Source of the DNA: Psammoneis japonica
Lineage: Eukaryota
Length of the DNA: 56,353 bases
Assembly: GCA_008632985.1 (NCBI GenBank)
Contig: QPGO01000319.1
Span: forward strand, 1-56,353
Direction of reading: 5' to 3'
Below the pieces are notes generated by a model, which ran no database searches, was not told the origin of the DNA, and was given only the letters and a program-made list of their open reading frames with translations. Within the stretch, counting starts at the first letter, position 1. Each line of letters begins with the position of its first letter. Shown here piece after piece: positions 1-33,610 of this stretch. A program made the translations under genes and the position numbers.

Positions 1-946
1 TAGGAATCCCAGTCAAGTTTTCCATTCTCGCGAGAACCGTCTGGACCGTGGCATTCTCGTAACATTTCTCTACACACCACGCGTTGGTGGATGTGCGTCC
101 CTCGTTTTCAAACGAATCGTACGTTCCATCAAACTTGGCTTCACCGACATCCGAGGATCGTTCGTATCCCTCGAGAGCACCCAATTCAATCAGCTCTTTG
201 CATTCTTGAGAAGACAAAAAGTGTTCAAGCGTGACTACCCACGGTCCTTCAATCACGCCCTCGTCCTTGCCGTTTGGTTTGGAAAGCGCTTTTGGACCGA
301 ATTGTTGGTAATGAGGTAGCGTCATGATGCGCTCAAAGATGGTATTCAACTCTCCCTCGTTTGTCAGCGCAGTAGGGGCGTCTTTGTCGTAGGGACATCG
401 TGTTTGAAAGTCCAAGAGTTCGCATGATTGGCAACTCGGTGCACAGTGGAGGGCCATGTATTGGGGATTGATCTCGCATTCACCAACGACAGCCCAAAAG
501 GCACATAGTTCGTGACGATTCTGACAATTCGATCGAATGTTTTTGTACTTTTCCTCCACCATGACTTGATTGGTCATGTAATCCTCGGTCGTTTTCAAAA
601 CGGCTTCCACCCGCGAGTCGGACGAATCCTGAGGCACTCCCCACGCGCTTTCTGTAAGCTTTTTCTTTTGGCAAACTCCACAACTCTTGGGACAGTTCTC
701 ATTCATATAGTTGGAATTGCTGACGCACTCGTCTTTGGAAGCCCAGAAACCGCATTGTTCGTGCTTGTCTACACAAGAATCATCTTCGTTAGCATCAGCT
801 GTCGCCGCACACTCGTTGTCTCCCGCTTCGCATGTTTGCTCTTTATCCGAGGCATTGGCAATTACGACAATCACCAAGAACCAAACTAAAGCATACATAA
901 GGCGTTTGATATCGACACAACGTCGATAAGGAGTACGGTTTGTCAT
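1..946 (-). CDS. ShKT-domain prolyl 4-hydroxylase-like 2OG-Fe(II) oxygenase (3' end runs off window)
   Basis: Not in the ORF track because it has no stop in the window. Minus-strand translation from ATG 946 (or 898) gives a hydrophobic leader (MYALVWFLVIVVIANA), two ShKT domains (CVDKHEQCGFWASKDECVSNSNYMNENCPKSCGVC; CQNRHELCAFWAVVGECEINPQYMALHCAPSCQSC), then P4H-type PWVVTLEHFLSSQECKELI...RTSTNAW. Confidence 0.85.
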   Translation of the reverse strand, partial: MTNRTPYRRCVDIKRLMYALVWFLVIVVIANASDKEQTCEAGDNECAATADANEDDSCVDKHEQCGFWASKDECVSNSNYMNENCPKSCGVCQKKKLTESAWGVPQDSSDSRVEAVLKTTEDYMTNQVMVEEKYKNIRSNCQNRHELCAFWAVVGECEINPQYMALHCAPSCQSCELLDFQTRCPYDKDAPTALTNEGELNTIFERIMTLPHYQQFGPKALSKPNGKDEGVIEGPWVVTLEHFLSSQECKELIELGALEGYERSSDVGEAKFDGTYDSFENEGRTSTNAWCVEKCYENATVQTVLARMENLTGIP

Positions 947-1297
947 TTTCGGAGACGTCATGGTCGACTTGATGCAGGTGTCATGCCGCAGGAAATAAAA
1001 AATGACTTACTCTTCCTCTCGACTCACCGTCCGTGTGCCGTCAGGAAGAGGATTCGGGATTGAGTCGACTGAATCAATGGTGACGGTTGAGTCGTGCACA
1101 TGATTCAGTTCGAAAACTTACATAGAACGTAGTACAAAAGCTACATACGTTGGACAATACCACACAAAACCGTACACGAAAAGTGATCGTTGGATTTCGC
1201 AAAAATCACAATCGACTTTTGTTGTTGTTGTTGTTACCCACTGCTCGAGTCTGTTGTTGTTGTTGCTATTACAGTATTGCTATTGACGTTCACCACC

Positions 1298-3769: not shown

Positions 3770-5019
3770 CGATGATTCGGGTTAGACCTGGATCACGTGG
3801 TGTTTTTCATTCTGGTAACGAGAGGGAATCCTTGTTTGTGTGGAACAATCATTTAGCCTTTCTCTCTAACAATAGTGTATAACGTATAGTAGCTTTTCTA
3901 ATCAAATCAATATGGCACTCCATTGCTGTAATCTCTAAAATAGCGCTTGTTCGGCAAGTCGTAAATCTCTTCCGACAGAAGTGTCGCCTGTGTCGCTGCC
4001 CACATCTTTCGACCGTACTAAATGTAACAGTTTCATGTTGCAGTCCAACCGAGTTTTGATTTGTTGCTCCTACCAGATACTCGTAGATCTAGAGGGGAAA
4101 AGAACAGGTGTGCTCTCGAGATAGATAGGGCCCTAGAGTATCATGATGTTGTGTTTTTTGGTGCATGTCATAAATAGCTAGTTAACCGTTTCCTCCCGAG
4201 TGACTACAAATGACTACATTTTGTATTTAATTTTTAGATTTTACGTATACAAGCATGTAGTCATTATTCAAAGATATATTTCTTACATGAACAATTTCGT
4301 ATTGAAGCATGTCCAAATTAAATACGAAACGATAGTGCCTAGTGTAGGGCGGTAGACACATCAGATGTAGATGCAGGGTCATGCCATTAGTGTTGAACAG
4401 TAGCGTTAGGACCTAATTGATCCTACGGAATAGCCCATGGCTATGGAAGGCACCTATTTTGACAGAAGTTAAATAGGGGCAAAGTCATCGCTAAAATTGG
4501 TCCTCTACGTAGAGCTCCGTATAAGTTTGTCTGTCCATCGCCAGTTCGCGCCAACATTTATTTAGGGGAATGAACGAGTAGGCTAGTGTCTGCATCCTAA
4601 GTGATCAATCATCGCAGACGAAGCAACAATGTCTGCTCGCTCCACCTGTAGAGCAATATGAGACAACCACCAAGCACATAACAGCTCGTAGACACAGTCA
4701 TTGAAGAGACTTACTAATTAAATAGGAGATTTATACGTATATAAAAGCACAAATTTCTTATGTGATTTTAGATTTTTATTTCCATTGAATACAAAAAACA
4801 CGTTCGGGAGGAAACTGTTAACGTAGTACGAGACGACAATTGTTTGGAATTTTTTCTGGTGTGATTTCTACACGTTTCTACACAAAGCGATGGTCGCACT
4901 TCGGCTTGTCCCAGGACGCTATCAAATGCTGCGTTTCCTTCAACCAAGTGTCCTGCATTCTTAATTAATTGGTGTCTCCTTGACTTGCCCATGGAAAGAA
5001 ACTGCAAGTTTCGAGATTA

Positions 5020-7180
5020 TGTCAACAAGACATTCCTGTTGGCAAAAAAAAGGTCCTGTTTTTTCGCCCCAAGTTTTTGAACCAGATGCTTGGATGGGAA
5101 AAAGTGTCGAAAGGAGCAGTTTCTTTCACTCGGCAGGAAGCCAAGACAGTGGAGAAAGTGTCTGCATGCTTGAATTCACAAGTGTTTTCGTCTTGGAAGT
5201 GCTTTTCATGGCCTTTCCAAGACGATGTAGAGAACGAGGCGACAAATGAGCGACCGCCAAAACGGAGTTTCCGTTGAGCAACACACTTGCAATCACGCGC
5301 ATGCCGACCCATGTGATTCGCCAATGAGACACAGTGCTTTTGTCTGATGATAAATTCCTGATTCCCGTGATTTTCAATGAAAATGCACGGGGATGGAAAC
5401 GATTTTCACAATTTTCGTCTCGCGCCACCTCATCAAGGTGGCACGGGCACAAAAGTGGGCCAGATTCTGCACACGCAGAGCTTGGCATGTTTTCCACACA
5501 AATCGCCAAAGTCGGCTCGCCAACTTGAGCCCTCTCCAGGATGATGGAAACTGGAACATTTCACATGACAAAGTGTTTCGACTGCTCAGCTGCACTCCCC
5601 TCGACTTGTTTGTGAAGAGAAGTTGCAAGTTTCCATGGGTTTCTCATTTTGTGCAGCTCTTTAAAACTCGAACATCACGATTTCAGCACCTTTCTGATTA
5701 GATTCGTTGTGTGTCCTCAGAAACCTGTGAAAGCTTGCAATTTCTCTCCCCAAACAAGTTGAGGAGAGTGCAACCAAGCAGTCGAAGCACTTTGTTGTGT
5801 GAAATGTCCAAGTTTCCATCGTCCTGGAGAGGGTTCAAGTTGGCGAGCCGACTTTGGTGATTTGTGTAGAAAACATGCCAAGCTCTACGTGCGTAGAATC
5901 TGGCCCACTTTTGCACCCGTGCCACCTCAAAAGGGCGGTCCAGAGATCGCCTGGTGCACTTTTTACATGGAAACTGCCAGAGAGCCAATCACGCACATTC
6001 CCACACAGACGCAGCACAAAACAGAAAGCATGGCACTCCATCACGTGACCCTCACGACAACACCACCTGATGACAATGCATCAAAAATGGCGTCGTCCGC
6101 ATCTTTCTGCAGCTCCTCTTTCACTCACCCGATTGCTCCAAAAGGGCCAGGGAAAGCCAGTGAGCTTTCTCTCATGACAGAGCAATGCAAACAAAAGTTG
6201 TTTTTTATTCCAAAATCTCAGAATGCAGTGCACCCGATTGTCAAGGCGAACTGGCACGTTGGCAGTGACAACACCAGTTGATGTTCACTCTAGAACAACA
6301 ATGGAGACGTGACACCCCAACAAAACAAAGTCTGTGCCCCCATGATGAATTTTAAAGCTGGTTCTTCTTGTTGGCATGCAATCTTTAGCTGCTTTTTAGA
6401 CTTGACAAAATGATCATCTGCCCCGGCTGTCACCCTCTAAGTTTGTTGCATTGGCTGACAAATTGGGCAAGTGAGCCACACATTTCCAGCTTGTGAACTG
6501 CCTTGCAGCCAAAAGAAGCAATCTAAACCTTCAGAACAGCCATGATGCACTGGTCTGCCGAATCAAACTCCACATCACCAAGTGGAGGCGGGGAGAACCA
6601 TTGTCAAAAATGCGCTGTGACGGATCTGAGCTCTTGAGAGCTTGTCCAGCTTTTGACGCCATGGCCCCAAATCACCATGTTCACTGTGAAGTCAGCCTGA
6701 TGCTGTGTCTGTGACTTTGCCTCATTTTGGAATTGCCACGGCCATCGCATTGCAGAACTGACATTCTTGACGAGGAAAAGTGTTTCTGGGATGCCTTGCG
6801 ACGACGGAGACCCTGCAGAACAAAAGAACAATGTAGAAAGAGACAACACATGCAAGTCAAACGGGTGTCAATGCACAAAGCCTCAACGAAACACACAGCA
6901 CAAATGGTGACACATGAGGTCGGTTGTGATGCAACAGAAGCGACGCTGTCAGCGCGAACTTTCAGTGAGAATTTTCACCATCAGCTGCCCATGTGAACCT
7001 GTGTGCTCTCAAGCTTGTCACATGCCTCATGCTGTGACGCAAGACATTCCGTTGAGAGTACACTGCAAAGCACCTCAGAAACAACCGCATTTTTGAAATC
7101 GGTGAAACGCCATTGTCCGTGTCATTTTGCGTCGCGAGCCAGAAAAAAACTCCCAAAAACTGTTCTGCAGGGCAAAATGT
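5020..7180. other. TpA-depleted island 1 with decayed ORF relics flanking the inverted repeat
   Basis: Only ~18 TA in ~2.15 kb by eye. ORFs are Cys/His-rich and almost Tyr-free. Confidence 0.7.
5436..5927. repeat. Long inverted repeat: 209-bp arms (5436-5644 / 5719-5927) with a 74-bp spacer
   Basis: aggtggcacgggcacaaaagtgggccagattc...gggtttct is the approximate reverse complement of agaaacc...tggcccacttttgcacccgtgccacct. The ORF track shows paired translations on opposite strands (RAQKWARFCTRRAWHVFHTNRQ vs RVQKWARFYARRAWHVFYTNHQ). Confidence 0.92.
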
Positions 7181-7705: not shown

Positions 7706-8535
7706 ATGTTCATGATGAGTAGTTCTCCACCTGTGCATCATGAGGTCGCTGATCGAGATGAGAATGAGACTGGTACGAAACGCTTGGATGTGATTGACGC
7801 AAATCACGAACGAAAAAGTACCGTTCGGTTTGCTCCTTCTTGTCAAGTGTTGGAGTATGTTGCTCCACTTGATGAAATGTCGGCGACCGAAAGGGCCGCT
7901 ATTTGGTGGCAAGAAGAGGATTATTATGCATTCAAAGCAACAGCTCGTCAGATTTGTCGAGAGTCGAGACAGCGACGAGATGATCGACTGCTTCTTGGAT
8001 TGGACCAATCATTCAACAACACTCGTCGATTCATAACAACCGAGAACGACAATACTTCACTCGACCAAGTATCTGCTGATGCGGTAAGTCGGGTTTTTGT
8101 GCGAGAGAAAGTCATGATAAATAAAGACGAGTTCATTTTTTGCTAATTCCGTCCTTGTTTCGTTCACAGGGCTTGATTCAATACTGTACACATGCTCATT
8201 CGCGTCGAGGCTTGGAGCGATGGATTTCTAAACTACACGGTCAAGTTCGCAGTCAAGCCGCATCTAAAAACATCCAAACGGTCGTTCAACACTCCGCGGT
8301 ACTGCCAGAAGAGGAGCTGAGCATTCTGGCCCAGGAGCAATCCTTTTTGGCTCGTGTGTTCGCACGTCAAGTTGGTGATGCGGACGCTCTGGCTGTGAAA
8401 TCTCCACCCAAATACAATAGAATGGACTATCTCAAAACAAGACACCAGTTGGCGCAACGGTGTCAAGCTACCCTTCGAACGAATGCTGCAGCCGCGCAGC
8501 AAAATCTCGAGCCGCTTTCGTTGAGAGGACGTTAG
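7706..8535 (+). CDS. Diatom-type hypothetical protein ('VRF...W...RGLE' family), 2 exons
   Basis: Exon 1 7706-8083, GT-AG intron 8084-8169, exon 2 8170-8535 in frame. Motifs TVRFA, AIWWQEEDY, SRRGLERW. Confidence 0.75.
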
Positions 8536-10345
8536 AGTACAATCGTGTTGTTCCTTTTTTATGCAAGTGACACTGCACTTTGCTATATTAGATCTTATTT
8601 TGTTACTAGATAGAAGAGACTTCAAATGTCACTCTGCCGCTACAAATTGATTCTAGCTAGCTCTCTAGTAGCTAGTAGAGCAAAGGACTTACCACCGCAC
8701 GACGCACGACTGACAAATTTTGACATAGACTCACGATGGAGAGTGGAGATCTACCGGCACCGGTGTCGCGAGACTGATTCGCCGCCGCCGCGTCCCGCGT
8801 CCTGGTCCCCACGTCCCCGCCCCCCCCCCCCCCCCCCCGGCAACACAACAAAACCTCAGTCCCATTCTTTCAACGACGTTTGAGTGCAAGCTTGACGCCG
8901 TTTTGTGCTCATTGCATTTGACAAGTCTCCTGCAGTTGCAATGAGGGAATTGCACTGGTTGCAAGATGTGTTTGCCGAAACGAACCCGAGCGAGGTCGAC
9001 AGCATCTGCATCTTGGCTGAAGAAATTGATGTCAAAGGCATCAAGCAATTGAGCCATTTTCTTCCCTCCTTTTGCAAATCAACAAACTTTCATTTGATTG
9101 CTTGTGCCACTGGTTCAGAGGGAATGGACTGTTTGTCTCGAGCCCTTTGGTCACTCCTCCCAAAGCTGTGTGTGCTTGATCCAACAAGATTGGGGATGAT
9201 GGCATCAAGCATTTGTTGAAAGTCATCCCTTTTCTTTTTCGGTTGGAGAAACTTGTGCTCAACCACAATGGCGTTGGCCCTGAGGGTGCAAAGTCCTTGT
9301 GCAAAGTGCTTGAACAGAGTGCAGAAATCGAGAGCATCGACCTCACAGGAAACTCAATCGGAGATGAAGGTGCAGAATGTCTTGGTGAGAGCTGTTGACA
9401 AAACATTGCAAACTGACAGGTTTTGTGCCTTGCTGGTTGTTGCGTTGGGCAAAAGAGAGACAAAACATTGGCCAGGAGTGTGAAAGAAAGCACATTCATT
9501 GACAGTCTTTGTCTTGATGACAATGACATTGGAGATGGTGGTGCAAGAGCCCTTGGACAAATGCTTGGGCAAAACAACAAAATCACATTTGTGGTTGTGT
9601 TGTGTGCCTCTTTTGGAGAAAAGGGGGACAGCTTGAATGTCACAATGTCATTCCCTGCATTTTGTGGCATGACACTGGCGAGGATCAAGTGTCTGAGATT
9701 GAAAGGGACCAGGAGAGATGTTGTGGGACATTTTGCAGTTGCTGCATCATGATTGGATTTCTGATGGCATTTGGGCCAAGGTGTTGGCATGGGTTGGCCA
9801 CAACCCCAACCTTCTTTTCCATGCAGTCAAGGCCAAACTGGATGTTGTCAAGAAAAGGATGTTGCTTTGTTCGCGTGGCAGCATGAGCCATGCATTGGTT
9901 CCAAATTTAAGGAGTGTGGGGGGGTGCACATGAGATGCATCCATCAACGTCACTTGGTGTTCATCGCATGTTTGCTGATCACCCAGAACAATCTTGCACA
10001 ATGCACTGTGTGTCTTTTGGCTTCAACCAAAGACCACTCTTTGTGCAGCGGAGGCATTGTCCCTGCTTGCCTGTTTGCAGTGTCTGGCAACCGACTGATG
10101 CTCTGTTCTTCCACACAAACCATCCATTGCAGTCACTCCCTTTCTTCAATCCACCAACAATGCTGCCTCTTCTGCAAATGCAGTTGAAATGCCTTTGCAC
10201 ATCTAAAGTGCAAAGGCACTTGCCAGGACACTGCAGTGCAGCTTCAATCAGACTCCACAAGTGCAGGCCATTGTTTGACCATGACGACACGGTTGCACAC
10301 TGGCACAACCTCTAGACTGACCAACACAGTCCTGCAAACAGATGC
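8255..10345 (+). repeat. Segmental duplication copy A (3' end of the 7706 gene + LRR gene + downstream DNA)
   Basis: Colinear with 14733-16875 (shared gccagaagaggagctgagc, gcacgactgacaaattt, gaggatcaagtgtctgagattgaaagggaccaggag, gaccatgacgac). Confidence 0.9.
8850..9930 (+). pseudogene. RNI-like leucine-rich-repeat pseudogene, copy A
   Basis: Frameshifted fragments LEKLVLNHNGVGPEGAKSLC, IDLTGNSIGDEGAECLG, LCLDDNDIGDGGARALG, and the C-terminal IWAKVLA...NLLF motif. Contains stops and no Tyr. Confidence 0.88.
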
Positions 10346-10399
10346 GTCATCTTCTCGTCATGGTCTTTGAATGAGCAAATCAAAGTTGCAAGTCAGACC

Positions 10400-12200
10400 A
10401 CATGTCAATGTTCCCTGATCTCTCACATGATGAGCCCAGCTCATGAAACACCCCCAGCTCTTTCTCATGTGCATGGATCCACTGCAAAATCCCTCACCAG
10501 AAGGGTCTCCTCCTCAACACCCACGTGCCAGTTTGGTCGCGCAGACTGAGACAGACTTCGTCTCTCTGCCTGTGGTGCACGCCAACACACCATCAGAAAA
10601 ATGAGGCTCATGATGACAAAAAGAGGCCCACATCTCTCTTGCAGCAAATGCCAATCTGCAAGCATTGCCACAGCATGCCACACAAGCGTGAGGGCTTGCT
10701 GTGGTCGTTGAATGGTTCTGGCAACTTGTTGCTCCCTTCCAAGTCTTCTGTCCTCTGGAGCCATTGTGCAAGGCAAAGCCCGCACATGGGACATTGCCTC
10801 CTCAACAAACATGCCTCAAAACTTGGTCATCTGTGCACTCAATCAACACACAACATGAACAACTTGACTGTTTGCACTGCACACAAACAGAACATGGTTG
10901 ACAAGAGCCAATGGCACCGCACTTTGAGCAAGCTGTGCACAATGTTCAGGAGTCCACAAACAAGCACCTTCCTTGTGGAAACATCACTTGCAACTGTCAT
11001 CTGCACAAAGGCCATGTTTTGGGCATGTCCAATTGCTTGCTTGATGCATCTCATGGCTTGGCTCTCAATGGTGTCTTTTGTGGCTGTTTTGCATTCACCT
11101 GCTGTCATGGATTCATCTTTGTCAATGTGCTTTTCATTGCCAAAGTCAATGTCTTCATTGCTTCCTTCTTGACTGCACTTTGCAAAATGGCAAGCATGTT
11201 GCTGCTTGGCCCCAAAACAGCACAGAATTGCATCGTTTCGTGAAACCAGGAAAGGCCACAGCATGCCAAGATGCCTGCTGATGTTTCTTTGGTTGCAAAA
11301 TCCAGCATCAAACAAACCTCTGCTCTTCAGTGGCATGTTCAGGGGCCACCAGCCATTGAAAACAACATTGTTCCAAAAGCACTTCTTGCTGCTCCCCAAA
11401 ATCCATTGAAGATCTGCTCAACCAATGTTGACTTGTTTTTTGATCATGCCAGCCCCATCTGGCCAGCTTGTTGCTTCAGCTTGGTGACTGAGTGTTTCGT
11501 CTGATCATTCTCCATCTCTTGTTTTCATGTTTTGTCACAAATGGGTTGGATGCCTGTTGCATCAAAAACTTCTAGACTTCCTTCAGATGCTCCCTGAAGT
11601 CGCCAAACTCTCTGACTTGTGCTCCTTTCTCAAAGCAGTGCTTGCAATTGCTCCTGTGATGTGCCCAACTTGCAACAAATGCCGCTCATTTCCCCTTTGC
11701 CTTTTGTTTGTGCAAGTTGATTTCTGCAAGCAGATGTGTCTCCTTTGAACCCACCATGTTTGGTTGCACCCAATTGAGTGGATTGATGATCCATGCTTCA
11801 AGGGATGTTTCAATTTGTCTGAGTGGGAGAGGGCTTCTTGAACTGGCATGGCTCTGGATGGGGTGTGCAATGTGCCAGAGTCTTGGGTTTGGTGCCAGCA
11901 TTTGTGGAATGACGATGCTTTGTTTGTGATGACAGAGTCAAGGCACAGGAGCTGAGCCACCGTCAAGTGAGAGAGCACTGAATTGGCTTGTGGGCAGCTG
12001 TGATTGTTTGATGAGGTTGTTGTGTTTGGCACAGTTTGAAGCCATTTACAACAGCATTTTGTTGTTGTGGTGCTCCTGCATTTGTTTCACAGATCCCACT
12101 CCTGTGTGGCATGAGATGGCATGTGACGGCCAGCCAGTCCCCTGGACAGTCTTCTTGGCAACACACAGACTTTGAGCATCATTTGGTTCTCTCAACAACT
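10400..12200 (-). pseudogene. Decayed ORF relic with a SAP-like helix-extension-helix motif
   Basis: Minus strand ~11495-11410 reads KHSVTKLKQQAGQMGLA*SKNKSTLVEQI, which fits the SAP consensus if CAC came from TAC and TGA from CGA. The rest is not identifiable. Confidence 0.4.
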
Positions 12201-12405
12201 TCAAAGACTTTTTGCCATGGTTTTGCAGAGCAAGCATCCAATGCAAACAGAAGCTGCAGTGTGCAGCGTGCAACTGCCATGCCGGCACGCACATTTGCAA
12301 TCACACACAACTTGTGCTGTCAATCGCGCCACAATCGTGGATGCGTGCGAAGGACAGAACGATCACACAGAGTTGATCGGAAGTCAAAAATTGCAAACAC
12401 GATCA

Positions 12406-14210
12406 ATGGATGATGTTGACATCTTGTGTGTCAGTGCCAGCTGTGTTCGGACAATCTGTTGTCATGACTGCATTCTCCGAAAGGCTTTTTGTTGTCTGCA
12501 GAAGCAAGCGCAGAAGCTCTGGGCCATTGAGGACTCATTCGGACAAACCAAAAATCACAGAGCAAAATTCAATCTCACAATTTCCACTTTTCGCACCTTG
12601 TTCTGATTTCATTTGCACTTGTTCTTCAAGCACAGTGCAAGTGCAATGTGCAGCTGCTGACAAGAGTTGGTGTGTCACGGCGACGTGTTGCAGCCTTTAA
12701 ATGTCACAAAGGGCGTGACAAAAACAACCTTTTGTCTGCATGCATGCTGCATTGCATTGCTGCAGACAACTCCCACTCGGGTTTCGAACCCCTGGCCTCC
12801 TGCCTAATGGCATCCACTGTCGAACGCGTAAAACTCTGTGCAGTTCTGCACGTTCCTTCGTACGCACCCACACTGTTTCGCCAAAACCGTGCAGTGTCAG
12901 CACACGTTAGTAAAGAGCCGCATGGACGCGTGACACATGGGGAGGAGTGCAATTTACAGCCACTGGTGAGAGCCAATGCATCACGGCGACGTGTTGCAGC
13001 CTTTAAATGTCACAAAGGGCGTGACAAAAACAACCTTTTGTCTGCATGCATGCTGCACAAGTGAGTGCTTGGCTGCTCCAATGACTTGAAACAAATTGGC
13101 TCCCCATGAGCAGTGTTTTGCAAGTGATGTGGCAGTGAGGTGGCCATGGTTGAGAGCAATGTGGTTGGTGCCTTTGAGAGACACCATTTGTTGTCCCAAC
13201 TCAGCACACATCTCGCAGAAGTGCCACAACAGTTTGCAGGAGGCTGTCTTTCTTGGTGCTCACACAAGTTGTGAGCATCATCATCACCCTGGATGTGAGC
13301 AAGATGGTGGCTGTCTCTCGCACTCTTGCTGGTCTGAAACCTTTTCGCTTTTTCTCATGCCACGCAAGCTTCACAGGGGCTGGTGCAGATGCTGTTGAAG
13401 ATCATTGTCAATTGATGGGATGGACACACCCCAGGCAGAAACACGTGTGTGAAAACTCTTTGTTCAAGGCAGGTGCTGCGCTTCTTGGCAGTGCTGCTCA
13501 TCTTCTTGCACGGGAGCACTCCAAGTGCTGGAGAGTGTGAGTCTGCTTCTGAAAGCCATTGTGGACAAGAGCCAGTGAGCACCATTTGAGTTGCTGCACA
13601 GCAAAGGTCTTCCACCATGGGGAAGGATCTTGCGGCACTTTTCATCAAAGAAGACGGCTCAAGCATTTTCCAACAGAAGGATGCAGTGGCAAGGATGCAC
13701 ACAAAATGACAAGAAAGATGCACTTCACAAGCAAACCCTTTGTCTTGGCTCAAAATCAGGGAACATTTGAGACATCAAGAGAGCTCAGCAGCTGTTGAAT
13801 GGTTGGCTGGAAGAAGCATGTGACAAGTGCTGAGACCTTTCTGAAATCAAATTGTGCAGCAGCACTGTTGCCTCTCCATTTTGTCTCAAATGAAGCAAAC
13901 AAAAGTTGGCTGCAGAGTTCCTTGTCAGAGGTGTTGTGTGTTTTGTGTTCTTGGACCAGGGTCAGCAGCAGGATTCAAACTGCATCAGCAGCCACATTGC
14001 AAATTGCACACATGGCAGAAATTGCACAACTTGCACAGGAGTCCAAGAGAATTTTGGCTCCTTTTGCCCTTGCTGTGACTGCAAAAATGACACAAAAGAG
14101 CAAAGAAAACTTCCAAAGTCAAGAGCTTGCACTGTCTCAAACAGATGCCACTGCATTGACTGACGCCAAGTTTTTGCAGACATCTCATTGTTTTGCACAT
14201 TTTTGCCTGT
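12406..14210 (+). pseudogene. Decayed ORF relic interrupted by the TRIM
   Basis: Protein-like stretches after restoring C/H to Y (MDDVDIL.VSAS.VRTI...; KMTRKM.FTSKPFVLAQNQGTFE). Family not recognised. Confidence 0.3.
12642..13057 (+). mobile_element. TRIM-like miniature LTR retroelement (416 bp)
   Basis: 110-bp LTRs 12642-12751 and 12948-13057, both TG...CA, with the last 77 bp identical. Polypurine tract ggggaggag (12939-12947) abuts the 3' LTR. 4-bp TSD caag at 12638-12641 and 13058-13061. No coding capacity. Confidence 0.85.
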
Positions 14211-14342
14211 AGTCTGTTGGGTCTTTTTGGTTTGACCCAAATCACCTGAGACACCTGCAACTTCACGTGATGTGTGAGCCACTGAATGGCTCACACTGGG
14301 AGCGGGGTCAGCTGGCCATGATGACACACAACTGTGCACCAG

Positions 14343-14730
14343 ACGCGTTCCAGGTCTAGGTGGGACCTCGTACTACTGAACTGTGACATCGACAGTTTTT
14401 TGAATCACGTCGTATGTCGCACACGTAGATTTCTACGTGATTTTTTCGACATTTTGTGTCATTTTACGGTACACTTATTGAGCGATCCGTCCAACAACTT
14501 TTGACATTTTTTGTTACAGCGCGATTCTATAATGTCTTAAGAATCGCGTAGGGCAGGCGCATTTGCAAAAACGTTGAGTGGCAAGAGGCATAATTGTACC
14601 ACAAACTTGGCAGTTTATTTGATGTTGAAGATAAATATATCCATTAATTAAATTCTCGTACTACGGAGCTCGCACGTAGAATTCTACGGGCCCAATGTCA
14701 CACGGAGTCCCACCTAGGACTGGAACCCGT
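14343..14730. mobile_element. MITE (388 bp) with 24-bp TIRs and a 3-bp CAG target-site duplication
   Basis: acgcgttccaggtctaggtgggac (14343-14366) matches the reverse complement of gtcccacctaggactggaacccgt (14707-14730) at 21/24. cag lies at 14340-14342 and 14731-14733. AT-rich non-coding interior. Confidence 0.82.
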
Positions 14731-14732
14731 CA

Positions 14733-15025
14733 GCAGCTGCATCCAAAAACATTCAAACAGTCACTCAGCACTCCACAGCAGTGCCAGAAGAGGAGCTGAG
14801 CATGCCAGCTCAAGAGCGGCCCTCTTTTTTGCTCGTGTTTTTGTGCATCAAGTTGGCAACGGAGATGCTGCTCTGGCTGTGAAATCTGAGCCCCAATCCA
14901 ATGGAACCGACCACATCAAAACAAGAGATGCCAGTTGGTGCAATGGCATCAAGCCACCCTTCAAATGAATGCTGCAGCTGCAAGGCAAAATCTTGACCCA
15001 CTTTCGTTGGCGAGAGGATGCTGGA
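14733..15025 (+). pseudogene. Mutated fragment of exon 2 of the 7706-8535 gene
   Basis: Aligns to 8255-8535 with indels, an in-frame-disrupting change, and TA/CG->TG/CA substitutions. Confidence 0.85.
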
Positions 15026-15321
15026 GAGAGAGTGGAGCCTTGTGTTGTCCCTGTTTTGTGCAAGTGATGCTGCACTTTGCTGTGCATTGGATCTTGTTTT
15101 GCAGCTGGACAGAAGAGACTTTAAATGCCACTTTGCTGCTGCAGTTGCACTCCACTGCAGGACCCACAAGACCAGCTGCTGCTGCTGCGGCTGCATGCTC
15201 TGCTGGAGAGCAGAATTGACCGGCTGGACTCTGTCAAAATCTGAGACGTGAGTGCAGTTTCTGCGTGTGCACGACTGACAAATTTCAAATTCTGACAACC
15301 ACCACATTGTCACATCCCATC

Positions 15322-16403
15322 ATGCCACAACAAACTCAACTGCCGCCAGTGGCCAGCCCCATTCTTTCACAAGTTTTGGGCAAGCTCAATGCCATTGTGT
15401 GCTTGTTGCATTTGACACGTCTCCTGTGGTTGCAAAACGAGGGAAATGTGAGCCGGTTGCAAGATGTGTTGGCCATGACGAAGCCAAGCGAAGTTGATTG
15501 CTTGGAAATCTTGCACGTTGATGATGATGGTGCCAAGCAATTGAGCCAAAAACTTCCCTGCTTTTGCAAATTAACAAACCTTTGTTTGACTGGTCGCAAC
15601 CTTGATTCAGAGGGCATGAAGCATTTGTGTCGAGCCCTTTTGTCGCTCCCAAAACTGTTTGTCCTTGGGTTGCCTTGCTGCGACATTGGGGATGACGGTG
15701 CAGCGTGTTTGTCAGAAGTCATCCCTTCTCTTTTTCGGCTGAAGGAACTCTTTCTGAGCTGCAACAGCATTGGCCCTGATGGTGCAAAGTCTTCACGCAA
15801 AGCCCGGGAACAGAGTGCAGAGTTTGAATGGGTCGACCTCTCAGGAAACTCCATCGGAAATCGAGGTGCAGAATGTCTTGGCAAACTGTTGATGAAAAAT
15901 CACAAACTGACAGGTTTGAGGCTGTCAAATTGTTGTGTTGGGCAAAACGGAGCTGAAGCATTGGTCAGGAGCGTGAACGAAAGCTCATCCATTGATGCTC
16001 TTGATCTTGATGGCAACGGCATTGGAGACGGTGGTGCAAGAGCCCTCGGACAAATGCTTGCATAAAACAACACAATCGTGGATGTGCGTGTGTCGCGGTT
16101 GGTGGGGAGGCGGCCCCAGTGGATTGCGTGAAGCAAAATTTGAAGGTCAATCCCTGCCATTTGTGGTACGGCATTAGCGAGGATCAAGTGTCTGAGATTG
16201 AAAGGGACCAGGAGATGTTGCGAGACATTTTGCGGTTGTTGCGTCATGATTCGATTCCTGATGGCATTTGGGCCAAGGTGTTGGCACGGGTTAGAAACAA
16301 CCCTAACCTTCTTTACCGTGTGGTCACGGCCAAACCGGATATTTTCAAGAAATGGGACCGCGCGTTGGTTCCGAATTCGAGGAGTAGCATGGGATGTATT
16401 TGA
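15322..16403 (+). pseudogene. RNI-like LRR pseudogene, copy B
   Basis: Tyr-free ORF with LxxLxLxxNxIGxxGAxxL repeats, ending at a premature TAA (16063-16065; copy A has CAA). The unmutated C-terminal IWAKVLARV...NLLYRVVTAKPDIF follows in another frame. Confidence 0.85.
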
Positions 16404-17032
16404 GATGTATCCATCGACGTCACTTGGTGTTCAGTGTATATGTTTGTAGATTACGCGCAACAATCTAGTAAAATACACCATGTATCTTTTTGTTTCTTCT
16501 ATCAAAGCCCATTCTTCGTACGGTGGAGGTATTATCCCTACCTGTTTGTAGTCCCTCTAGTAGCTAGCTAGCTAGCAACCGATGGTCTATTCTTCCGAAC
16601 GAACCGTAATCTCCCTCGACATTACTAACTTTCTTTGCGGCTTATTGTTGTAGTCATTCTCTTGTTTGAATCCACCTCTAGTCCCAGAAACGATAAGGCC
16701 TCTTCTGGAAACGTAGTTGAAATACCTTTGCACATCAATCGTAAAGCGCAAAGGTACATACTGGTCTAGCAGGAGAGTACAATACATAGTTTCAAATAAT
16801 AGAGCTACACGTAGTATAAGCCATTATTCGACCATGACGACCTACAGTCTAACCAACAAAGTCCTACAAACAAACACACGATTTTTCACATATTTTATAC
16901 TATTGGAGTACACATTCTCGATTGTTTCTTGCATGATTGGTGCCTCCAGTTTCCCAAATCGTTCTTTACACAAAAAGAGAGTTTATGCTTTGTGCCATTG
17001 AATAAGAAACGTAGCTGCTGCAACACAAAAGC

Positions 17033-17035
<3 letters not shown>

Positions 17036-17064
<29 letters not shown>
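17036..17064. repeat. (CT)n microsatellite downstream of aureochrome
   Basis: About 14 CT units. Confidence 0.9.
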
Positions 17065-17068
<4 letters not shown>

Positions 17069-17108
17069 CCAACGATATAATAACTCTACCTCCCATTCTC
17101 CTTCTTCA

Positions 17109-18518
17109 CTACTCCTTGTTCAATCCATCCTCGCCCGCCGCTGCCGCTGCTTGTAGTCGAGCTTCATCTTCTTCTTCTTGTTTCTTGCACACATTGGCCG
17201 CATACTGATCCGACACTTTACACTGCACACCAACATAATTGGTAATGTTCCCACCGGCATCTCTCAAGGCGGCAATAAAGAATTGATTCCAAAAGGTCGT
17301 TCCATCGACACGATAATTCAATAGACACACCGACATGTCGGTTCCTTCTTCAATCGATCGACGAATCTTTTCCACCGCCTTGGGGTCCGTTTCGGGTCCT
17401 TGTAAGAAACGACAATTGCGTCCCAACACTTGATCCAAGGTGTATCCCGTGAGATTTAAAAATCCCTGTGTCGCATAGACAATGGGGTTATCGGGAAGAG
17501 ACGGATCCGTCACGACAAAGTTTTGTTGTGCCGTTTGTAATGCCTTGATGAAACTAAAATCGGGATCGTCCAATACCTTGTTGGCATCGTTGGAATTGTT
17601 GGCAATGAGTGAATTTCCAGAGGACGACGCTGCCGCGGCAGCGTGTTGTTCTAAATTGGACAAAATGCCCTCGGCAGCTTCATTGCCCAAGTGAGAACGA
17701 ACCGAGGAACGGAGTTTTTCGTTTTCTTCCTTGAGGAGTGTTACGGATTGTTGGAGGGATTCGAGAAGGAACTTTTTGCGAATGCGAGAGCGTTTGGCGT
17801 GTTCGCGGTTGCGTTCTCTGTATGTGTATAGAGAGAAAAAGAGAGGGAGTTTTATGAGGTATTCATACAAAAGCCAAATCATCACCGCCATATGCTCAAA
17901 ACAACAGCAACAATACTAATTTTCAATTTCTTCTCACCTCCGCTCTACTTTTTGTTGTTCACTCATTTTTCGTTCCGATCCACCCCTCGACGAAGTGGAT
18001 GTGGATCGTCCACCCGTCTTGCGTTTCGGACTAGGCGATGGTGCCGTGGTGGCATATTGCATATGATGACGTTGTTGCGGTGGTTGAACAAAGGGTACCG
18101 CTGGAGGTGCTGCTGTACCCACTCCTCCAGCAGTATTACTCATGACGAGTGCCGGTGCACCGGGTTTGTCGAGATTGGTAGTTTGAATACCACCAGCCAC
18201 CGCCACAGGAACAAACGGTTGTTGTTGCGTCTGTGCTGTAGTTGCAGTTTGTTCTGTAGCAGGACGACTTGCAATGGGTGCGACGTGATTGCCTTCACCA
18301 CTTTTCAAAACGCCACTCGAATTAGCCTGATCATCCATAAATACCGTTTCACCGTCGGGAGTAAAGAAACAATCTCCAAAAATATCATCGAGATTGAGAG
18401 TGGCCGGTGTTCCGCGTTGTGCTACCGCCGCGGCTGCCGATGCCGACAAGTTGGGAACATCCGAAGCAAAGACAGGAACTGGTGGTTGTTGTTGTTGCTG
18501 TTGATTGGATGATGCCAT
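17109..18518 (-). CDS. AUREO1a: Aureochrome 1a (bZIP-LOV blue-light transcription factor), 2 exons, ~429 aa
   Basis: Exon 1 18518-17938, intron 17937-17818, exon 2 17817-17109. bZIP ERRERNREHAKRSRIRKKFLLESLQ. LOV domain with GRNCRFLQG, NFVVTDPSLPDNPIVYA, FWNQFFIAALRD. Confidence 0.96.
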
Positions 18519-32069: not shown

Positions 32070-33610
32070 GGGAAAACCCCCAAACGCACTGGCGATCAGA
32101 CCGCCTTCGACGATCTCACTTCCAAAGACGCCCCCCAGTTTCGGGATTCGCAATCATCAGTCGTGCGAAACAGGCAGTCGAATGGATCATGGATCGCCAA
32201 ACCAAAGAGCAGACCACGCACTCCAAGCTTCTGCTCAAGACAATGATGATGGACTCTACTCTCGCCCCTGATGAACAAAGGCATTGTCACCAGCTTGGCA
32301 GGCATTTGTGGAGAGGAAGAAGCAAATGCATGCAGGCACAAACATGTCTTTGCAAGTTGTGCTGGTGCTGCTCCTGCTCTGGGTGTTTGCAGGGATGCGC
32401 TGAGCGAGTTTCAAACTGGCATCATCAAAGAAAGATGGGAGGCTTCCCATCATGCTGTGCAAAAGTCATCATGAGGAAAAATGAGAAAGCCAGACTTGTG
32501 GTGATGAGTGCAAAAGGTCCCTGTGCTCTGTGACAAAGAACAGCTCACGACGCTCATCATCCACAATGGCGCGGGGAGGATCGGGCTTCTTTTGGCATTC
32601 TTGCATGTGCCATGCAGACAAGAATTGTCATTTGTTGTCATTCACCTCAAGGTCTTTCATGTTGATTTCATCAATTGTCTTGTTGTTGATGAGGTCATGG
32701 AATTCTGGGCATTTTTGTGAGACACTTCAAGTGCGTTCTCATTTCATCCATGCCACATGTCAACAATGCTGGCAGAGGCACACCCCACAAAGAATTCTGC
32801 ATTCAAATGCTTGCACATTGTGGCTTCCATCTCTTGTTGAGATTCCATGTGGATTGAAACTGCAGGTTTGAGCCAAAAAGACAATTGAGCACTGTCTGCC
32901 AAACTTGGCCAAAAGGAGTGGTCATCCTGGAGTGGCTTTGTTTCATTCTTGGAACCCTTTGTCACAGATGCACGGACATCACTTCCATCACTGATCATGG
33001 TGAGAAAGTCCTGCTCACTTCAATCAATCTCCGCACTCTTTTTTATGGCTTGAGTCGAGAGTCGAGGTTGAAACATCTGGCCTCATTTCTTCTCCAGCCC
33101 AGCATTGTGGAGGAGGAGTGTCCATCTAAGGTGAGATTGCCTTTGCCAGTGGCAACCACATGGAAGTTGTGGTTTTCCTCATGGCTCTGAACCAAGCAAG
33201 CTGGCAATGAGGGCCTTGTCATTGGGATCTTCCGCGCTGCGCCAGTGCAAAAAAGCCTGCATCATGAACGAAAGTGCAGGACACTTCAGAAGCCTCTGAC
33301 ACAAGAAATGCAAGTTGCGTGCTCAATTTTTCCAAAGTGTGCCTGTGCACTTTTGGGTGTCTTGTGAGAGTTTCAAAAAAGGCAAGGGCGGGGCTTTCTG
33401 TTGTCTTTTGCACATCTTTTGTGTGCAGCATGCACACTGCACTTGTCACAGAAAGTCAGCAGAAGCAAGTCCCACAGCTGTTGTCATTTGGCCGCCTGAT
33501 GGCATTCCCTTGTTGGATCCGGAATTTCCAAAATCCAAGATCGGAGGAAAGACTGCATTGGCGCGTGTGTTTCCGCATGGTCGAAAGGATCGAACGCACT
33601 GAGACAAACT
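32070..33610 (-). pseudogene. TpA-erased island 3 containing a decayed minus-strand ORF relic
   Basis: Only ~3 TA in 1.5 kb. Minus-strand protein-like fragments show C/H where Y is expected (FETLTRHPKVHRHTLEKL; SQKCPEFHDLINNKTIDEINMKDLE). Confidence 0.7.

What the first reader, a model, noticed from the sequence alone, without database searches (positions are those of the whole stretch)
8800..16160. Repeat-associated TpA->TpG/CpA hypermutation: a 'reverse-RIP'-like genome-defence signature
Seen in sequence: TA is nearly absent here (~14 in 8850-14340, 3 in 14733-16160 by eye), while flanks have normal TA. Paralogs show the change: ggaggTAtTAtcccTAcctgtttgTAg (16526) vs ggaggCAtTGtcccTGcttgcctgtttgCAg (10050); gatgTAtccatCGacg vs gatgCAtccatCAacg; gaaaTAcctttg vs gaaaTGcctttg; gcatcTAaaaac (8260) vs gcatcCAaaaac (14739). 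Direction is supported by the LRR ORF, which has no Tyr in 266 aa and has Cys/His at usual Tyr positions (TAY->TGY/CAY). CpG also goes to TG/CA, so both dinucleotides converge on TG/CA. Established: fungal RIP does the opposite (CpA->TpA); 5mC deamination explains only the CpG part; Pol eta in somatic hypermutation and TadA-type deaminases both favour A->G at TA. Inference: a targeted A-to-G mutagenic process acts on silenced repeat DNA, either a DNA adenine deaminase or error-prone repair of 5mC-derived T:G mismatches. I do not know of a described mechanism for this in diatoms; a literature check is needed.
Basis: partly seen in the sequence, partly recalled or inferred. Interest (0 to 1): 0.92.

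Follow-up and report, generated by a model that had tools for sequence, protein, structure and literature searches.

The report
TA-erasing hypermutation blocks in a diatom
Several kilobase-long stretches of this diatom chromosome have had nearly every TA and most CG steps rewritten to TG or CA, which looks like the trace of a targeted mutation process reported so far only once, in an unrelated alga.

Summary
In 8860-16160, outside two young transposon insertions, only 9 TA remain where about 230 are expected. CG is cut 2- to 6-fold. The TG+CA excess matches the missing TA+CG, and the other 12 dinucleotides barely change. Two more blocks (5020-7050, 32070-33600) show the same signature.

Two diverged LRR paralogs straddle the block edges and give the direction. 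Of 55 TA in the unaffected copy, 42 are TG or CA in the affected copy; the same holds for 42 of 51 CG. A outside TpA and C outside CpG change 3-8 times less often. Contigs of a public run cover the TA-less DNA at flank depth, so an artefact is unlikely.

The best reading is a domain-targeted TpA->TpG/CpA hypermutation, probably enzymatic adenine deamination in DNA. Ordinary 5mC decay at CpG acts in the same silent, methylated chromatin.

"Repeat-associated" is only partly right: most of the main block is single copy, and the two young high-copy transposon insertions inside it are untouched.

The mechanism is no longer undescribed. A 2026 preprint shows TpA-only hypermutation in Bigelowiella natans. 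Seven literature searches found nothing for diatoms. One new detail: surviving TA are mostly YTAR and never RTAY.

The parts
8860..12674 (.). Hypermutated block 2a. It holds the LRR part and tail of paralog A plus about 2.4 kb with no recognisable coding content.
   Evidence: 5 TA and 47 CG in 8860-12300 against 130 and 204 expected. TA o/e is 0.02, CA 1.87, TG 1.83. X1 contig depth is about 55-75, as in the flanks. No Pfam family apart from weak chance-level hits. HMMER of ORF 10842-11417(-) against 1.84 billion proteins gave 0 hits.
12675..13057 (.). Young high-copy transposon nested in the block and not hypermutated. It has 77-nt terminal direct repeats that are 100% identical.
   Evidence: 8 TA and many CG inside it. 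The direct repeats 12640-12751 and 12946-13057 have identical last 77 nt. X1 summed depth is about 47,000.
13058..14341 (.). Hypermutated block 2b
   Evidence: 13010-14340 has 1 TA (50 expected) and 13 CG (79 expected). YR-step total is 324 observed against 320 expected. Depth is about 53-57.
14342..14731 (.). 390-nt MITE with 30-nt terminal inverted repeats, nested in the block, with normal TA and CG content
   Evidence: Inverted arms 14342-14371 and 14702-14731 are 83% complementary. It holds 28 TA, between 14357 and 14715. X1 summed depth is 75,000-130,000.
14732..16160 (.). Hypermutated block 2c: the 5' part and LRR part of paralog B. TA is erased but CG only halved.
   Evidence: 14740-16160 has 3 TA (54 expected) and 42 CG (84 expected). 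The LRR_6 ORF 15220-16065 scores E 6e-16.
8256..10260 (+). LRR paralog A. Its 5' part 8256-8644 lies outside the block and is normal. From 8857 on it lies inside and is mutated.
   Evidence: blastn and MAFFT against paralog B: 75% identity over 409 nt and 73% over 1256 nt.
14735..16840 (+). LRR paralog B. Up to about 16160 it lies inside the block and is mutated. Its tail 16160-16840 lies outside and is normal.
   Evidence: It is the reciprocal natural control for paralog A.
8820..8838 (.). C19 tract with a CpG-rich stretch just upstream, marking the sharp left edge of block 2
   Evidence: The last flank TA is at 8752 and the next is at 9908. Contigs break there.
5020..7050 (.). Block 1: a multi-copy element, TA-depleted with milder CG loss, containing a 209-nt inverted repeat (5436-5644 / 5719-5927)
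   Evidence: 16 TA (77 expected) and 72 CG (120 expected). X1 summed depth is about 650-4800. The inverted-repeat arms are 88% complementary. They differ at 26 sites: 24 transitions and 2 transversions, including four TG<->CA swaps.
32070..33600 (.). Block 3: an intergenic TA/CG-depleted stretch between a serpin gene and a Tudor-SNF2 helicase gene
   Evidence: 3 TA (58 expected), 41 CG (91 expected), TG 155 and CA 157. No Pfam family in 8 ORFs.

Best explanation
The window comes from a photosynthetic stramenopile, most likely a diatom. It holds discrete kilobase-scale domains where two dinucleotide-specific transition processes have run almost to completion.

1. TpA is converted to TpG or CpA, that is A:T->G:C at the A of either strand. 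One hit per dinucleotide destroys the target.
2. CpG is converted to TpG or CpA.

I take process 1 to be the same kind of localised TpA-specific hypermutation that a mutation-accumulation experiment demonstrated in Bigelowiella natans. It is most simply explained by an enzyme that deaminates adenine to hypoxanthine in DNA in a T-A context, here with a further preference for R-T-A-Y over Y-T-A-R. I take process 2 to be ordinary deamination of 5-methylcytosine, because diatoms methylate CpG in silent repeat chromatin. Both are confined to the same silent chromatin domains, which have edges sharper than about 100 nt. They inactivate what lies inside, here LRR-gene paralogs, an inverted-repeat element and unidentifiable DNA.

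Shown: the signature, its polarity, its saturation, its independence in separate copies, its domain limits and its read support.

Inferred: the enzyme, the chromatin targeting, the methylation state and a defence role.
For: Signature and balance:
- Only TA, CG, TG and CA depart from gene values.
- The TA+CG deficit equals the TG+CA excess in all five sub-blocks: 482/488, 844/827, 324/320, 343/342, 356/368 observed/expected YR steps.
- GC stays at 0.48 and TG is about equal to CA.

Polarity and specificity, from paralogs that each lie partly outside the block:
- TA in the normal copy: 42 of 55 are TG or CA in the mutated copy, 1 is kept, 12 are other.
- CG in the normal copy: 42 of 51 are TG or CA, 4 are kept.
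- Per base, A in TpA changes by transition in 45/111 (0.41) against 0.08-0.14 for ApA, CpA and GpA. C in CpG changes in 44/101 (0.44) against 0.05-0.07 for CpH.
- No TA->CG double conversion was seen in 55 sites.

Independent hits after duplication:
- 19 TG<->CA swaps occur where both paralogs are mutated.
- The inverted-repeat arms differ by 24 transitions and 2 transversions, with four TG<->CA swaps and three TA kept in one arm.

Sequence preference:
- Of 29 surviving TA, 16 are YTAR (baseline 274/1688, P 2e-6) and 0 are RTAY (baseline 511/1688, P 5e-5).
- The result also holds against the flanks of in-block TG/CA (P 1.6e-4 and 3.6e-4).

The sequence is real DNA:
- X1 contigs with word depth about 50-62 cover the TA-less stretches, like the flank at 59.9. 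One matches 10050-10524 with 0 differences.
- TG and CA are intermixed at neighbouring former TA sites, which is not what strand-wise misreading would give.
- Nested young transposons in the same domain read normally.

TA loss outpaces CG loss in every block.

Precedent: in B. natans 230 of 231 de novo mutations in two viral inserts were A->G or T->C. All the GC-biased ones fell on TpA, at about 1000 times the background rate, and 124 TpA-poor, CpA+TpG-rich clusters were found genome-wide (preprint Results read).

Diatom methylation is predominantly at CpG and lies on repeats (passages of PMC5124317).
Against: - No enzyme, methylation map, chromatin map or expression data could be examined, and no whole genome is held.
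- A->G on one strand cannot be told from T->C on the other, so a thymine-directed mechanism fits equally well.
- The block contents are not recognisably viral or transposon-derived, unlike the B. natans targets.
- The two youngest insertions in the domain are unmutated. Activity may therefore be past or episodic, or guided by sequence rather than by domain.
- Within-site strand choice follows the proposed flank preference only weakly: YTAY sites gave TG 7 and CA 3, RTAR sites gave TG 3 and CA 5, Fisher P 0.34.
- In 320 kb of other ochrophyte metagenome contigs, 0 of 1165 windows showed the combined signature, so it is not ubiquitous in that gene-rich sample.
- Run X1 may be the sample the window was assembled from, and its library type is not on record. 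It is therefore not fully independent support.
Confidence: 0.68

Rival explanations
1. The outcome is the same but the chemistry is directed at thymine. The T of TpA is enzymatically modified, for example oxidised to 5-hydroxymethyluracil by a TET/JBP-type dioxygenase. It is then mis-repaired or mis-replicated to C, giving TpA->CpA on that strand and TpG on the other.
For: Sequence alone cannot tell A->G from T->C on the opposite strand. TG and CA products are equally common (792 against 792-like totals: TG 415 and CA 377 in 8860-12300). The survivor bias YTAR versus RTAY reads equally well as a preference for R-[T]-A.
Against: No call bears on thymine modification. The only experimental precedent (B. 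natans preprint) proposes adenine deamination but did not test it either. That hydroxymethyluracil is enriched at TpA in some protists is recalled, not checked here.
Confidence: 0.15
2. TA mutations are collateral damage of error-prone repair (Pol eta type) that is recruited to T:G mismatches made by 5mC deamination.
For: TA and CG loss share the same domains.
Against: Pol eta's motif is WA, but ApA is not elevated: 16/156 = 0.10, against GpA 0.08 and TpA 0.41. TA is erased where CG is only mildly reduced (5020-7050: 16 TA against 72 CG; 14740-16160: 3 TA against 42 CG). TA loss is therefore not proportional to CpG deamination events. In B. natans the TpA mutations came without C->T mutations (1 of 211).
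Confidence: 0.05
3. This is a sequencing or assembly artefact. Modified bases in heterochromatin (5mC and a modified A or T at TpA) are misread strand by strand, and the consensus picks TG or CA at random.
For: Strand-wise misreading of palindromic TA and CG would give exactly TG/CA. The window differs from the X1 contigs at 42 of 3246 in-block positions against 3 of 1822 in the flanks (records shown only), including TG<->CA swaps. The X1 library type is unknown.
Against: X1 contigs have word depth about 50-62, equal to the flank, not half. They are themselves TA-poor. Differences go both ways: each side keeps TA or CG where the other has TG or CA. Neighbouring former TA sites are a mixture of TG and CA inside single contigs. 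Two transposons nested in the same domain read with normal TA and CG. Paralogs and inverted-repeat arms show old, fixed, copy-specific outcomes.
Confidence: 0.04
4. No targeted process is involved. The blocks are foreign or mobile DNA with intrinsically TA/CG-poor composition, or products of GC-biased gene conversion, or of selection against TA, or of RNA editing copied back by retrotransposition.
For: The block contents are mostly unidentifiable. The B. natans targets are foreign DNA.
Against: The block edges cut through two paralogs of one host-type LRR gene, and each paralog has a normal part outside the block. GC is unchanged at 0.48. Changes are context-bound. TG and CA outcomes are intermixed, 25 TG against 17 CA at former TA, so both strands are hit, unlike RNA editing of one transcript. 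No reverse transcriptase or other retroelement domain was found. Zero Tyr codons and broken frames in paralog A argue against selection on coding sequence.
Confidence: 0.04

Closest known systems
TpA-specific hypermutation of integrated NCLDV and virophage DNA in the chlorarachniophyte Bigelowiella natans (Mettrop et al., bioRxiv 10.64898/2026.01.13.699255; abstract, Results and Discussion read)
   Same: Only TpA is hit. The products are TpG and CpA on either strand. The process is confined to discrete regions and leaves TpA-poor, CpA+TpG-rich clusters. A defence role is suspected and the enzyme is unknown (an ADAT2-type deaminase is proposed).
   Different: - This is a different supergroup branch: stramenopile rather than rhizarian.
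- It is seen here only as a fossil signature, not as de novo events.
- Depletion is far deeper: TA o/e 0.02, against a TpA rho of 0.45 for their NCLDV insert.
- The targets are not recognisably viral and include host-type LRR paralogs.
- It is accompanied by strong CpG loss, which their text does not mention ('CpG' occurs 0 times).
- A flank preference (RTAY lost, YTAR spared) is seen here. Their text reports no flank analysis; their supplements were not seen.
Repeat-induced point mutation (RIP) of ascomycete fungi
   Same: It is a heritable, dinucleotide-specific transition hypermutation that inactivates silenced DNA. It can extend between linked repeats and leaves a strong dinucleotide-ratio signature.
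   Different: The direction is opposite: RIP makes TpA from CpA, and here TpA is destroyed. RIP lowers GC, while here GC is unchanged. RIP needs duplication, while most of the main block is single copy by depth and the paralogs are only 73-75% identical. The RIP properties are taken from abstracts listed and from general knowledge.
Methylation-driven CpG decay (5-methylcytosine deamination), as in vertebrate genomes and methylated repeats
   Same: The CG->TG/CA half of the signature is symmetric on both strands and lies in presumably CpG-methylated silent DNA. Diatom methylation is mainly at CpG on repeats (PMC5124317 passages).
   Different: It cannot touch TpA. TA loss here is stronger than CG loss in every block.
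Deaminase-based restriction of retroelements and viruses (APOBEC3 C->U on cDNA; ADAR A->I on dsRNA; tRNA deaminases ADAT2/TadA, which can act on DNA)
   Same: These are editing-type hypermutations with a 5'-neighbour preference. U or T before the edited A is typical of ADAR and of fungal Tad2/Tad3 editing (abstract of PMC11156358; preprint Discussion).
   Different: Those systems act on single strands or on RNA and give strand-biased tracts. Here both strands of chromosomal DNA are hit in an intermixed way. ADARs are metazoan. No deaminase gene lies in this window.

Membership tests
Localised TpA-specific hypermutation (Bigelowiella natans type) | Substitutions are A:T->G:C at TpA, giving TpG or CpA, and not at A in other contexts | tested here: met
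   42 of 55 TA became TG or CA. Transition rate is 0.41 for A in TpA against 0.08-0.14 elsewhere.
Localised TpA-specific hypermutation (Bigelowiella natans type) | [quoted passage not shown] | tested here: met
   TA o/e is 0.00-0.06 and TG/CA o/e 1.6-2.07 in the blocks. Edges are under 100 nt wide.
Localised TpA-specific hypermutation (Bigelowiella natans type) | Targets are integrated viral or other foreign DNA | tested here: inconclusive
   Only LRR_6 was recognised. There was no viral or transposon Pfam domain in 54+13 ORFs, 0 HMMER hits for one ORF, and no IMG/VR match for two ORFs. Heavy mutation may hide the origin.
Localised TpA-specific hypermutation (Bigelowiella natans type) | De novo mutations arise in real time at a rate orders of magnitude above background | not testable with these tools
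   There is only a hint. The window differs from the X1 contigs at 42/3246 in-block positions against 3/1822 in the flanks, with five TG<->CA double differences among the 40 listed rows.
Fungal RIP | C->T at CpA (or another CpN), creating TpA and lowering GC | tested here: not met
   TpA is destroyed, not created, and GC stays at 0.48.
Fungal RIP | Triggered by sequence duplication, with both copies mutated over the duplicated length | tested here: not met
   The block edges do not follow the paralog edges: each paralog has a normal part. Most of the block is single copy by depth, and the high-copy inserts are unmutated.
5mC-driven CpG decay | CpG->TpG/CpA on both strands | tested here: met
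   42 of 51 CG became TG or CA. Rate is 0.44 for C in CpG against 0.05-0.07 for CpH.
5mC-driven CpG decay | The locus is CpG-methylated | not testable with these tools
   No methylome is available. Only the general diatom pattern is known (PMC5124317 passages).
Pol eta-type WA-motif mutagenesis | A mutated after either T or A (the WA motif) | tested here: not met
   ApA 16/156 = 0.10 is no higher than GpA 10/119 = 0.08. TpA is 0.41.
RNA hyper-editing fixed by retrotransposition | A->G on one (sense) strand only, within a retroelement | tested here: not met
   TG (25) and CA (17) outcomes are intermixed along the paralogs. No reverse-transcriptase domain was found.
GC-biased gene conversion | Context-independent AT->GC bias that raises GC | tested here: not met
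   GC is 0.477-0.498 in the blocks, as in the flanks. Changes are context-bound.

The most novel reading that the evidence does not exclude
Diatoms possess an active, chromatin-targeted DNA-editing defence that deaminates adenine at R-T-A-Y in silent domains, several times faster than 5mC decay and hundreds of times faster than background. It would be homologous to the TpA hypermutation of the rhizarian Bigelowiella natans. TpA editing would then be an old, widespread SAR-clade counterpart of fungal RIP, erasing foreign or silenced DNA without changing GC content.
Probability: 0.3. Interest if true: 0.9.

Novelty: new member of a known kind. Interest (0 to 1): 0.72.

Why it matters
A heritable process that rewrites one dinucleotide in chosen chromosome domains acts as a genome-defence or genome-editing system. 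Only one experimental case is on record, a 2026 preprint on a chlorarachniophyte, and its enzyme is unknown.

Finding the same signature driven to saturation in a diatom would have several consequences:
1. It would extend the phenomenon to a second, ecologically dominant lineage that is genetically tractable.
2. It shows that the process can act on low-copy, host-type genes and not only on viral inserts.
3. It provides clean natural controls (paralogs and inverted-repeat arms cut by block edges) and a flank preference (RTAY over YTAR) that any candidate enzyme must reproduce.
4. It warns annotators that TA-free, Tyr-free, Cys-rich ORFs with few stop codons are mutational debris.

It also offers a simple genome-wide marker of long-term silent chromatin in diatoms: TA o/e below 0.1 together with TG/CA o/e above 1.6.

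Tried and rejected
- **Whole genome:** none is held, so no genome-wide scan or deaminase search was possible.
- **Earlier notes of this scan:** nothing for this genome or sequence. A word search returned only unrelated phage and bacterial items.
- **RNA evidence:** no RNA holder is listed.
- **RNA genes:** Rfam gathering search found 0 matches. ARAGORN found 0 tRNA genes, although 12752-12945 looks tRNA-like by eye.
- **Block content:**
  - Pfam on 16+54+13 ORFs gave only LRR_6 in the blocks.
  - phmmer of ORF 10842-11417(-) against 1.84 billion representatives gave 0 hits.
  - IMG/VR scans with two ORFs found no pattern match.
  - A codon-usage score did not single out real frames.
- **Tyr positions:** the LRR homologues are only 28-38% identical (30 proteins). 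That is too distant to test the Tyr-to-Cys/His claim at defined positions.
- **Generality:** 80 ochrophyte metagenome loci around aureochrome genes were scanned (320,336 nt, 1165 windows). Eleven windows had TA o/e below 0.2, but none combined that with TG/CA o/e of 1.5 or more; the highest was 1.33. This sample is gene-rich with short contigs, so it is weak negative evidence.
- **Strand coordination:** there are no long runs of TG-only or CA-only outcomes. TG/CA skew per 400 nt lies within -0.27 to +0.31.
- **Within-site strand choice by flank:** the direction is as predicted but not significant, P 0.34.
- **Window versus X1 differences:**
  - Single differences are not enriched at YR steps: 21 of the 40 listed rows fall there, about what chance gives. 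Only the TG<->CA doubles and the in-block excess are notable.
  - Only 40 of 274 difference rows and 8 X1 records were shown.
- **Literature:** seven searches found no report of this signature in diatoms. The diatom mutation-accumulation paper PMC6604790 contains neither 'TpA' nor 'hypermutable' (listing).

Full report

Yes, and it is stronger than described.

- A sliding-window count gives TA o/e of 0.00-0.06, CG o/e of 0.11-0.35 and mean TG/CA o/e of 1.63-2.07 between 9001 and 12250. The rest of the window has TA o/e of about 0.3-1.1 and CG of about 0.6-1.4.
- Against the window's own non-block frequencies, 8860-12300 holds 5 TA where 130 are expected (Poisson P 1e-48) and 47 CG where 204 are expected (P 6e-40). 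Further, 13010-14340 holds 1 TA (50 expected) and 14740-16160 holds 3 TA (54 expected). In 2000 mononucleotide shuffles there were never fewer than 200 TA.
- Only four dinucleotides move. TA falls from 0.55 to 0.02 and CG from 1.05 to 0.24. CA rises from 1.16 to 1.87 and TG from 1.18 to 1.83. The other twelve stay within about 0.3.
- The books balance. The sum TA+CG+TG+CA is 482/488, 844/827, 324/320, 343/342 and 356/368 (observed/expected) in the five sub-blocks. GC stays at 0.48 and TG is about equal to CA.
- Two more blocks that this finding did not list have the same signature: 5020-7050 and 32070-33600.

**2. Direction and specificity**

The window holds two diverged paralogs of an LRR gene, A at 8256-10260 and B at 14735-16840. 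They are 75% identical over 409 nt and 73% over 1256 nt. The block edges cut through both.

- The 5' part of A is outside the block while its counterpart in B is inside.
- The tail of B is outside while its counterpart in A is inside.

These two reciprocal comparisons give the following:

- Of 55 TA in the normal copy, 42 are TG (25) or CA (17) in the mutated copy, 1 is kept and 12 are other.
- Of 51 CG, 42 are TG or CA and 4 are kept.

Per base and strand-collapsed:

| Base and context | Transitions | Rate |
|---|---|---|
| A in TpA | 45 of 111 | 0.41 |
| A in ApA | | 0.10 |
| A in CpA | | 0.14 |
| A in GpA | | 0.08 |
| C in CpG | 44 of 101 | 0.44 |
| C in CpH | | 0.05-0.07 |

The 0.41 for TpA is near the ceiling of 0.5 that follows if one hit destroys the target.

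- No TA became CG (0 of 55).
- Reading the polarity the other way would require the genome-typical copies to have gained both TA and CG, so the depleted state is the derived one.
- Where both paralogs lie inside the block, 19 sites show TG in one and CA in the other. That is expected if the same ancestral TA or CG was resolved independently in each copy after duplication.
- A third natural control agrees. The arms of a 209-nt inverted repeat in block 1 differ at 26 sites, 24 of them transitions. These include four TG<->CA swaps and three TA kept in one arm only.

**3. Artefact?**

Unlikely.

- Run X1 holds 74% of the sampled words of 7800-17200.
- Its contigs cover the TA-less stretches at word depth of about 50-62, like the flank at 59.9. 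One matches 10050-10524 without a difference.
- That depth implies accurate reads. This is my inference, because the library type is not on record. X1 may also be the very sample the window was assembled from, so it is not fully independent.
- Strand-wise misreading of modified bases would give half-depth alternative paths, each all-TG or all-CA. Instead, TG and CA are intermixed at neighbouring former TA sites.
- Two transposons nested in the same domain read with normal TA and CG content.

**4. What the blocks contain**

The organism is a photosynthetic stramenopile, most likely a diatom. The gene next to the block (17109-17891, minus strand) is a bZIP-LOV aureochrome. Its best named relatives, at 80-89% identity, are mostly diatoms.

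- Inside the blocks only LRR_6 repeats are recognisable.
- One ORF searched against 1.84 billion proteins found nothing. Two ORFs found nothing in IMG/VR.
- By X1 depth most of 8860-16160 is single copy, with bins of 53-75. The LRR parts reach about 2x and block 1 is multi-copy at about 650-4800.
- Two islands interrupt the main block. One is a 390-nt MITE with 30-nt terminal inverted repeats at 14342-14731. The other is an element at 12675-13057 whose 77-nt terminal direct repeats are 100% identical.
- Both islands are extremely abundant in X1, with summed depths of 47,000-130,000, and both keep normal TA and CG.
- So the high-copy repeats in the block are the unmutated part, and they are very young insertions. 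'Repeat-associated' is at best partly right. The target behaves like a domain with sharp edges. The left edge sits at a C19 tract next to a CpG-rich stretch, 8780-8838.

**5. New details on the process**

(a) TA loss always exceeds CG loss. Taking -ln(observed/expected), TA decay is roughly 2-4 times CG decay in the sub-blocks. At 14740-16160 and 5020-7050 TA is nearly gone while half or more of the CG remain. TA loss is therefore not a by-product of CpG deamination.

(b) The few surviving TA are not a random sample.
- 16 of 29 are YTAR, against a baseline of 274/1688 (P 2e-6).
- None is RTAY, against a baseline of 511/1688 (P 5e-5).
- The bias also holds against the flanks of in-block TG/CA, which is the null for newly arisen TA (P 1.6e-4 and 3.6e-4).
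- This points to an agent with sequence preference beyond the dinucleotide.
- Within-site strand choice leans the same way but is not significant.
- YTAR sites are slowed, not immune: 9 of 11 were converted in the old paralogs.

(c) The window differs from the X1 contigs at 42 of 3246 in-block positions against 3 of 1822 in the flanks (Fisher P 7e-6; only the 8 X1 records shown).
- Overall the X1 differences are 224 transitions and 46 transversions.
- Among the 40 listed rows there are five TG<->CA double differences and one CGTG/CACG pair. Each side keeps TA or CG where the other has TG or CA.
- The single differences are not enriched at YR steps.
- The doubles imply that both lineages converted the same ancestral sites while diverging little elsewhere. 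A rough estimate from 5 doubles against 11 singles puts the target-site rate a few hundred times above background. This rests on few rows and on my model, so I treat it as a hint of recent activity only.

**6. Mechanism**

- ApA is not elevated, so a Pol eta type WA mutagenesis does not fit.
- GC is unchanged, so biased gene conversion does not fit.
- Both strands are hit in an intermixed way and no retroelement is present, so RNA editing followed by retro-copying does not fit.
- What remains is a DNA-level agent specific for the TpA step, acting in delimited domains. It could be adenine deamination (A->I, read as G) or a thymine-directed modification that ends as C. The sequence cannot separate the two.
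- I rank the adenine deaminase first. It needs one step. The T-before-A preference is typical of adenosine deaminases (abstract of PMC11156358; preprint Discussion).
- The CG half is best explained by 5mC deamination. In diatoms methylation is predominantly at CpG and sits on repeat regions (passages of PMC5124317). This suggests that the blocks are methylated silent chromatin. Methylation, chromatin state, the enzyme and a defence role are all inferred, not shown.

**7. Comparison with what is known**

The source is a bioRxiv preprint dated 2026-04-14 (10.64898/2026.01.13.699255; abstract, Results and Discussion read). It reports a mutation-accumulation experiment in Bigelowiella natans.

- 231 of 302 new mutations fell in two integrated viral regions, and 230 of these were A->G or T->C.
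- All of the GC-biased ones were at TpA, at about 1000 times the background rate.
- 124 TpA-poor, CpA+TpG-rich clusters were found genome-wide.
- An ADAT2-like candidate was proposed.

The present blocks meet that system's sequence-level criteria (see the membership table). They differ in lineage, depth of depletion, non-viral content and the accompanying CpG loss. The preprint text does not mention diatoms, stramenopiles or CpG, nor flanking context. Its supplements were not seen.

Seven full-text searches found no report of this signature in diatoms. Fungal RIP is the functional analogue but runs in the opposite direction and is triggered by duplication.

A sample of 320 kb of other ochrophyte metagenome contigs showed no such block. 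The signature is therefore either lineage-restricted or confined to gene-poor DNA that metagenome contigs rarely capture.

**8. Verdict**

A targeted TpA (plus CpG) transition hypermutation is right. 'Repeat-associated', the Pol eta alternative and 'undescribed' are not.
- On novelty, this is a new member of a very recently described kind. It is the first I can find in a diatom, and it comes with useful natural controls and a flank preference.

Noticed in passing
window 14342-14731: A 390-nt MITE with 30-nt terminal inverted repeats (83% complementary) and internal short repeats. It is extremely abundant in run X1 (summed depth 75,000-130,000) and is the only part of the stretch covered by the tiny run X3. 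Its TA and CG content are normal although it sits inside a hypermutated domain.
   Followed up: partly
window 12640-13057: A young element with 77-nt terminal direct repeats that are 100% identical. Its core looks tRNA-like by eye, but ARAGORN and Rfam call nothing. Summed X1 depth is about 47,000. The 35 nt upstream of each repeat are also similar but differ by TG<->CA-type changes.
   Followed up: partly
window 5436-5644 and 5719-5927: A 209-nt inverted repeat (88% complementary, 74-nt loop) lies inside TA-depleted block 1, which is a multi-copy element. If transcribed it would form a long hairpin, a possible small-RNA trigger for silencing.
   Followed up: partly
window 17109-17891 (-): An aureochrome gene (bZIP plus LOV/PAS) lies about 950 nt from the right edge of the block. 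It places the window in a photosynthetic stramenopile. The best named hits, at 80-89% identity, are mostly diatoms.
   Followed up: yes
window 33942-39932 (+): A 1996-aa ORF with an N-terminal PTM/DIR17-like Tudor domain and an SNF2/DEAD-type helicase core starts about 340 nt after TA-depleted block 3. It is a chromatin-remodeller-like gene beside a hypermutated block. No link between the two was tested.
   Followed up: no
window 8780-8838: A CpG-rich stretch ends in a C19 homopolymer exactly at the left edge of the main block. X1 contigs break there.
   Followed up: no
window 1606-1768 and 1801-1963: A tandem duplication (82% identical over 166 nt) lies inside the 859-aa ORF 1190-3769, which has no Pfam family.
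   Followed up: no
window 26346-30110 (+): Helicase_C, HA2 and OB_NTP_bind domains are spread over successive ORFs (27415-28419, 28953-30110). This looks like one DEAH-box helicase gene split by introns or frame changes.
   Followed up: no
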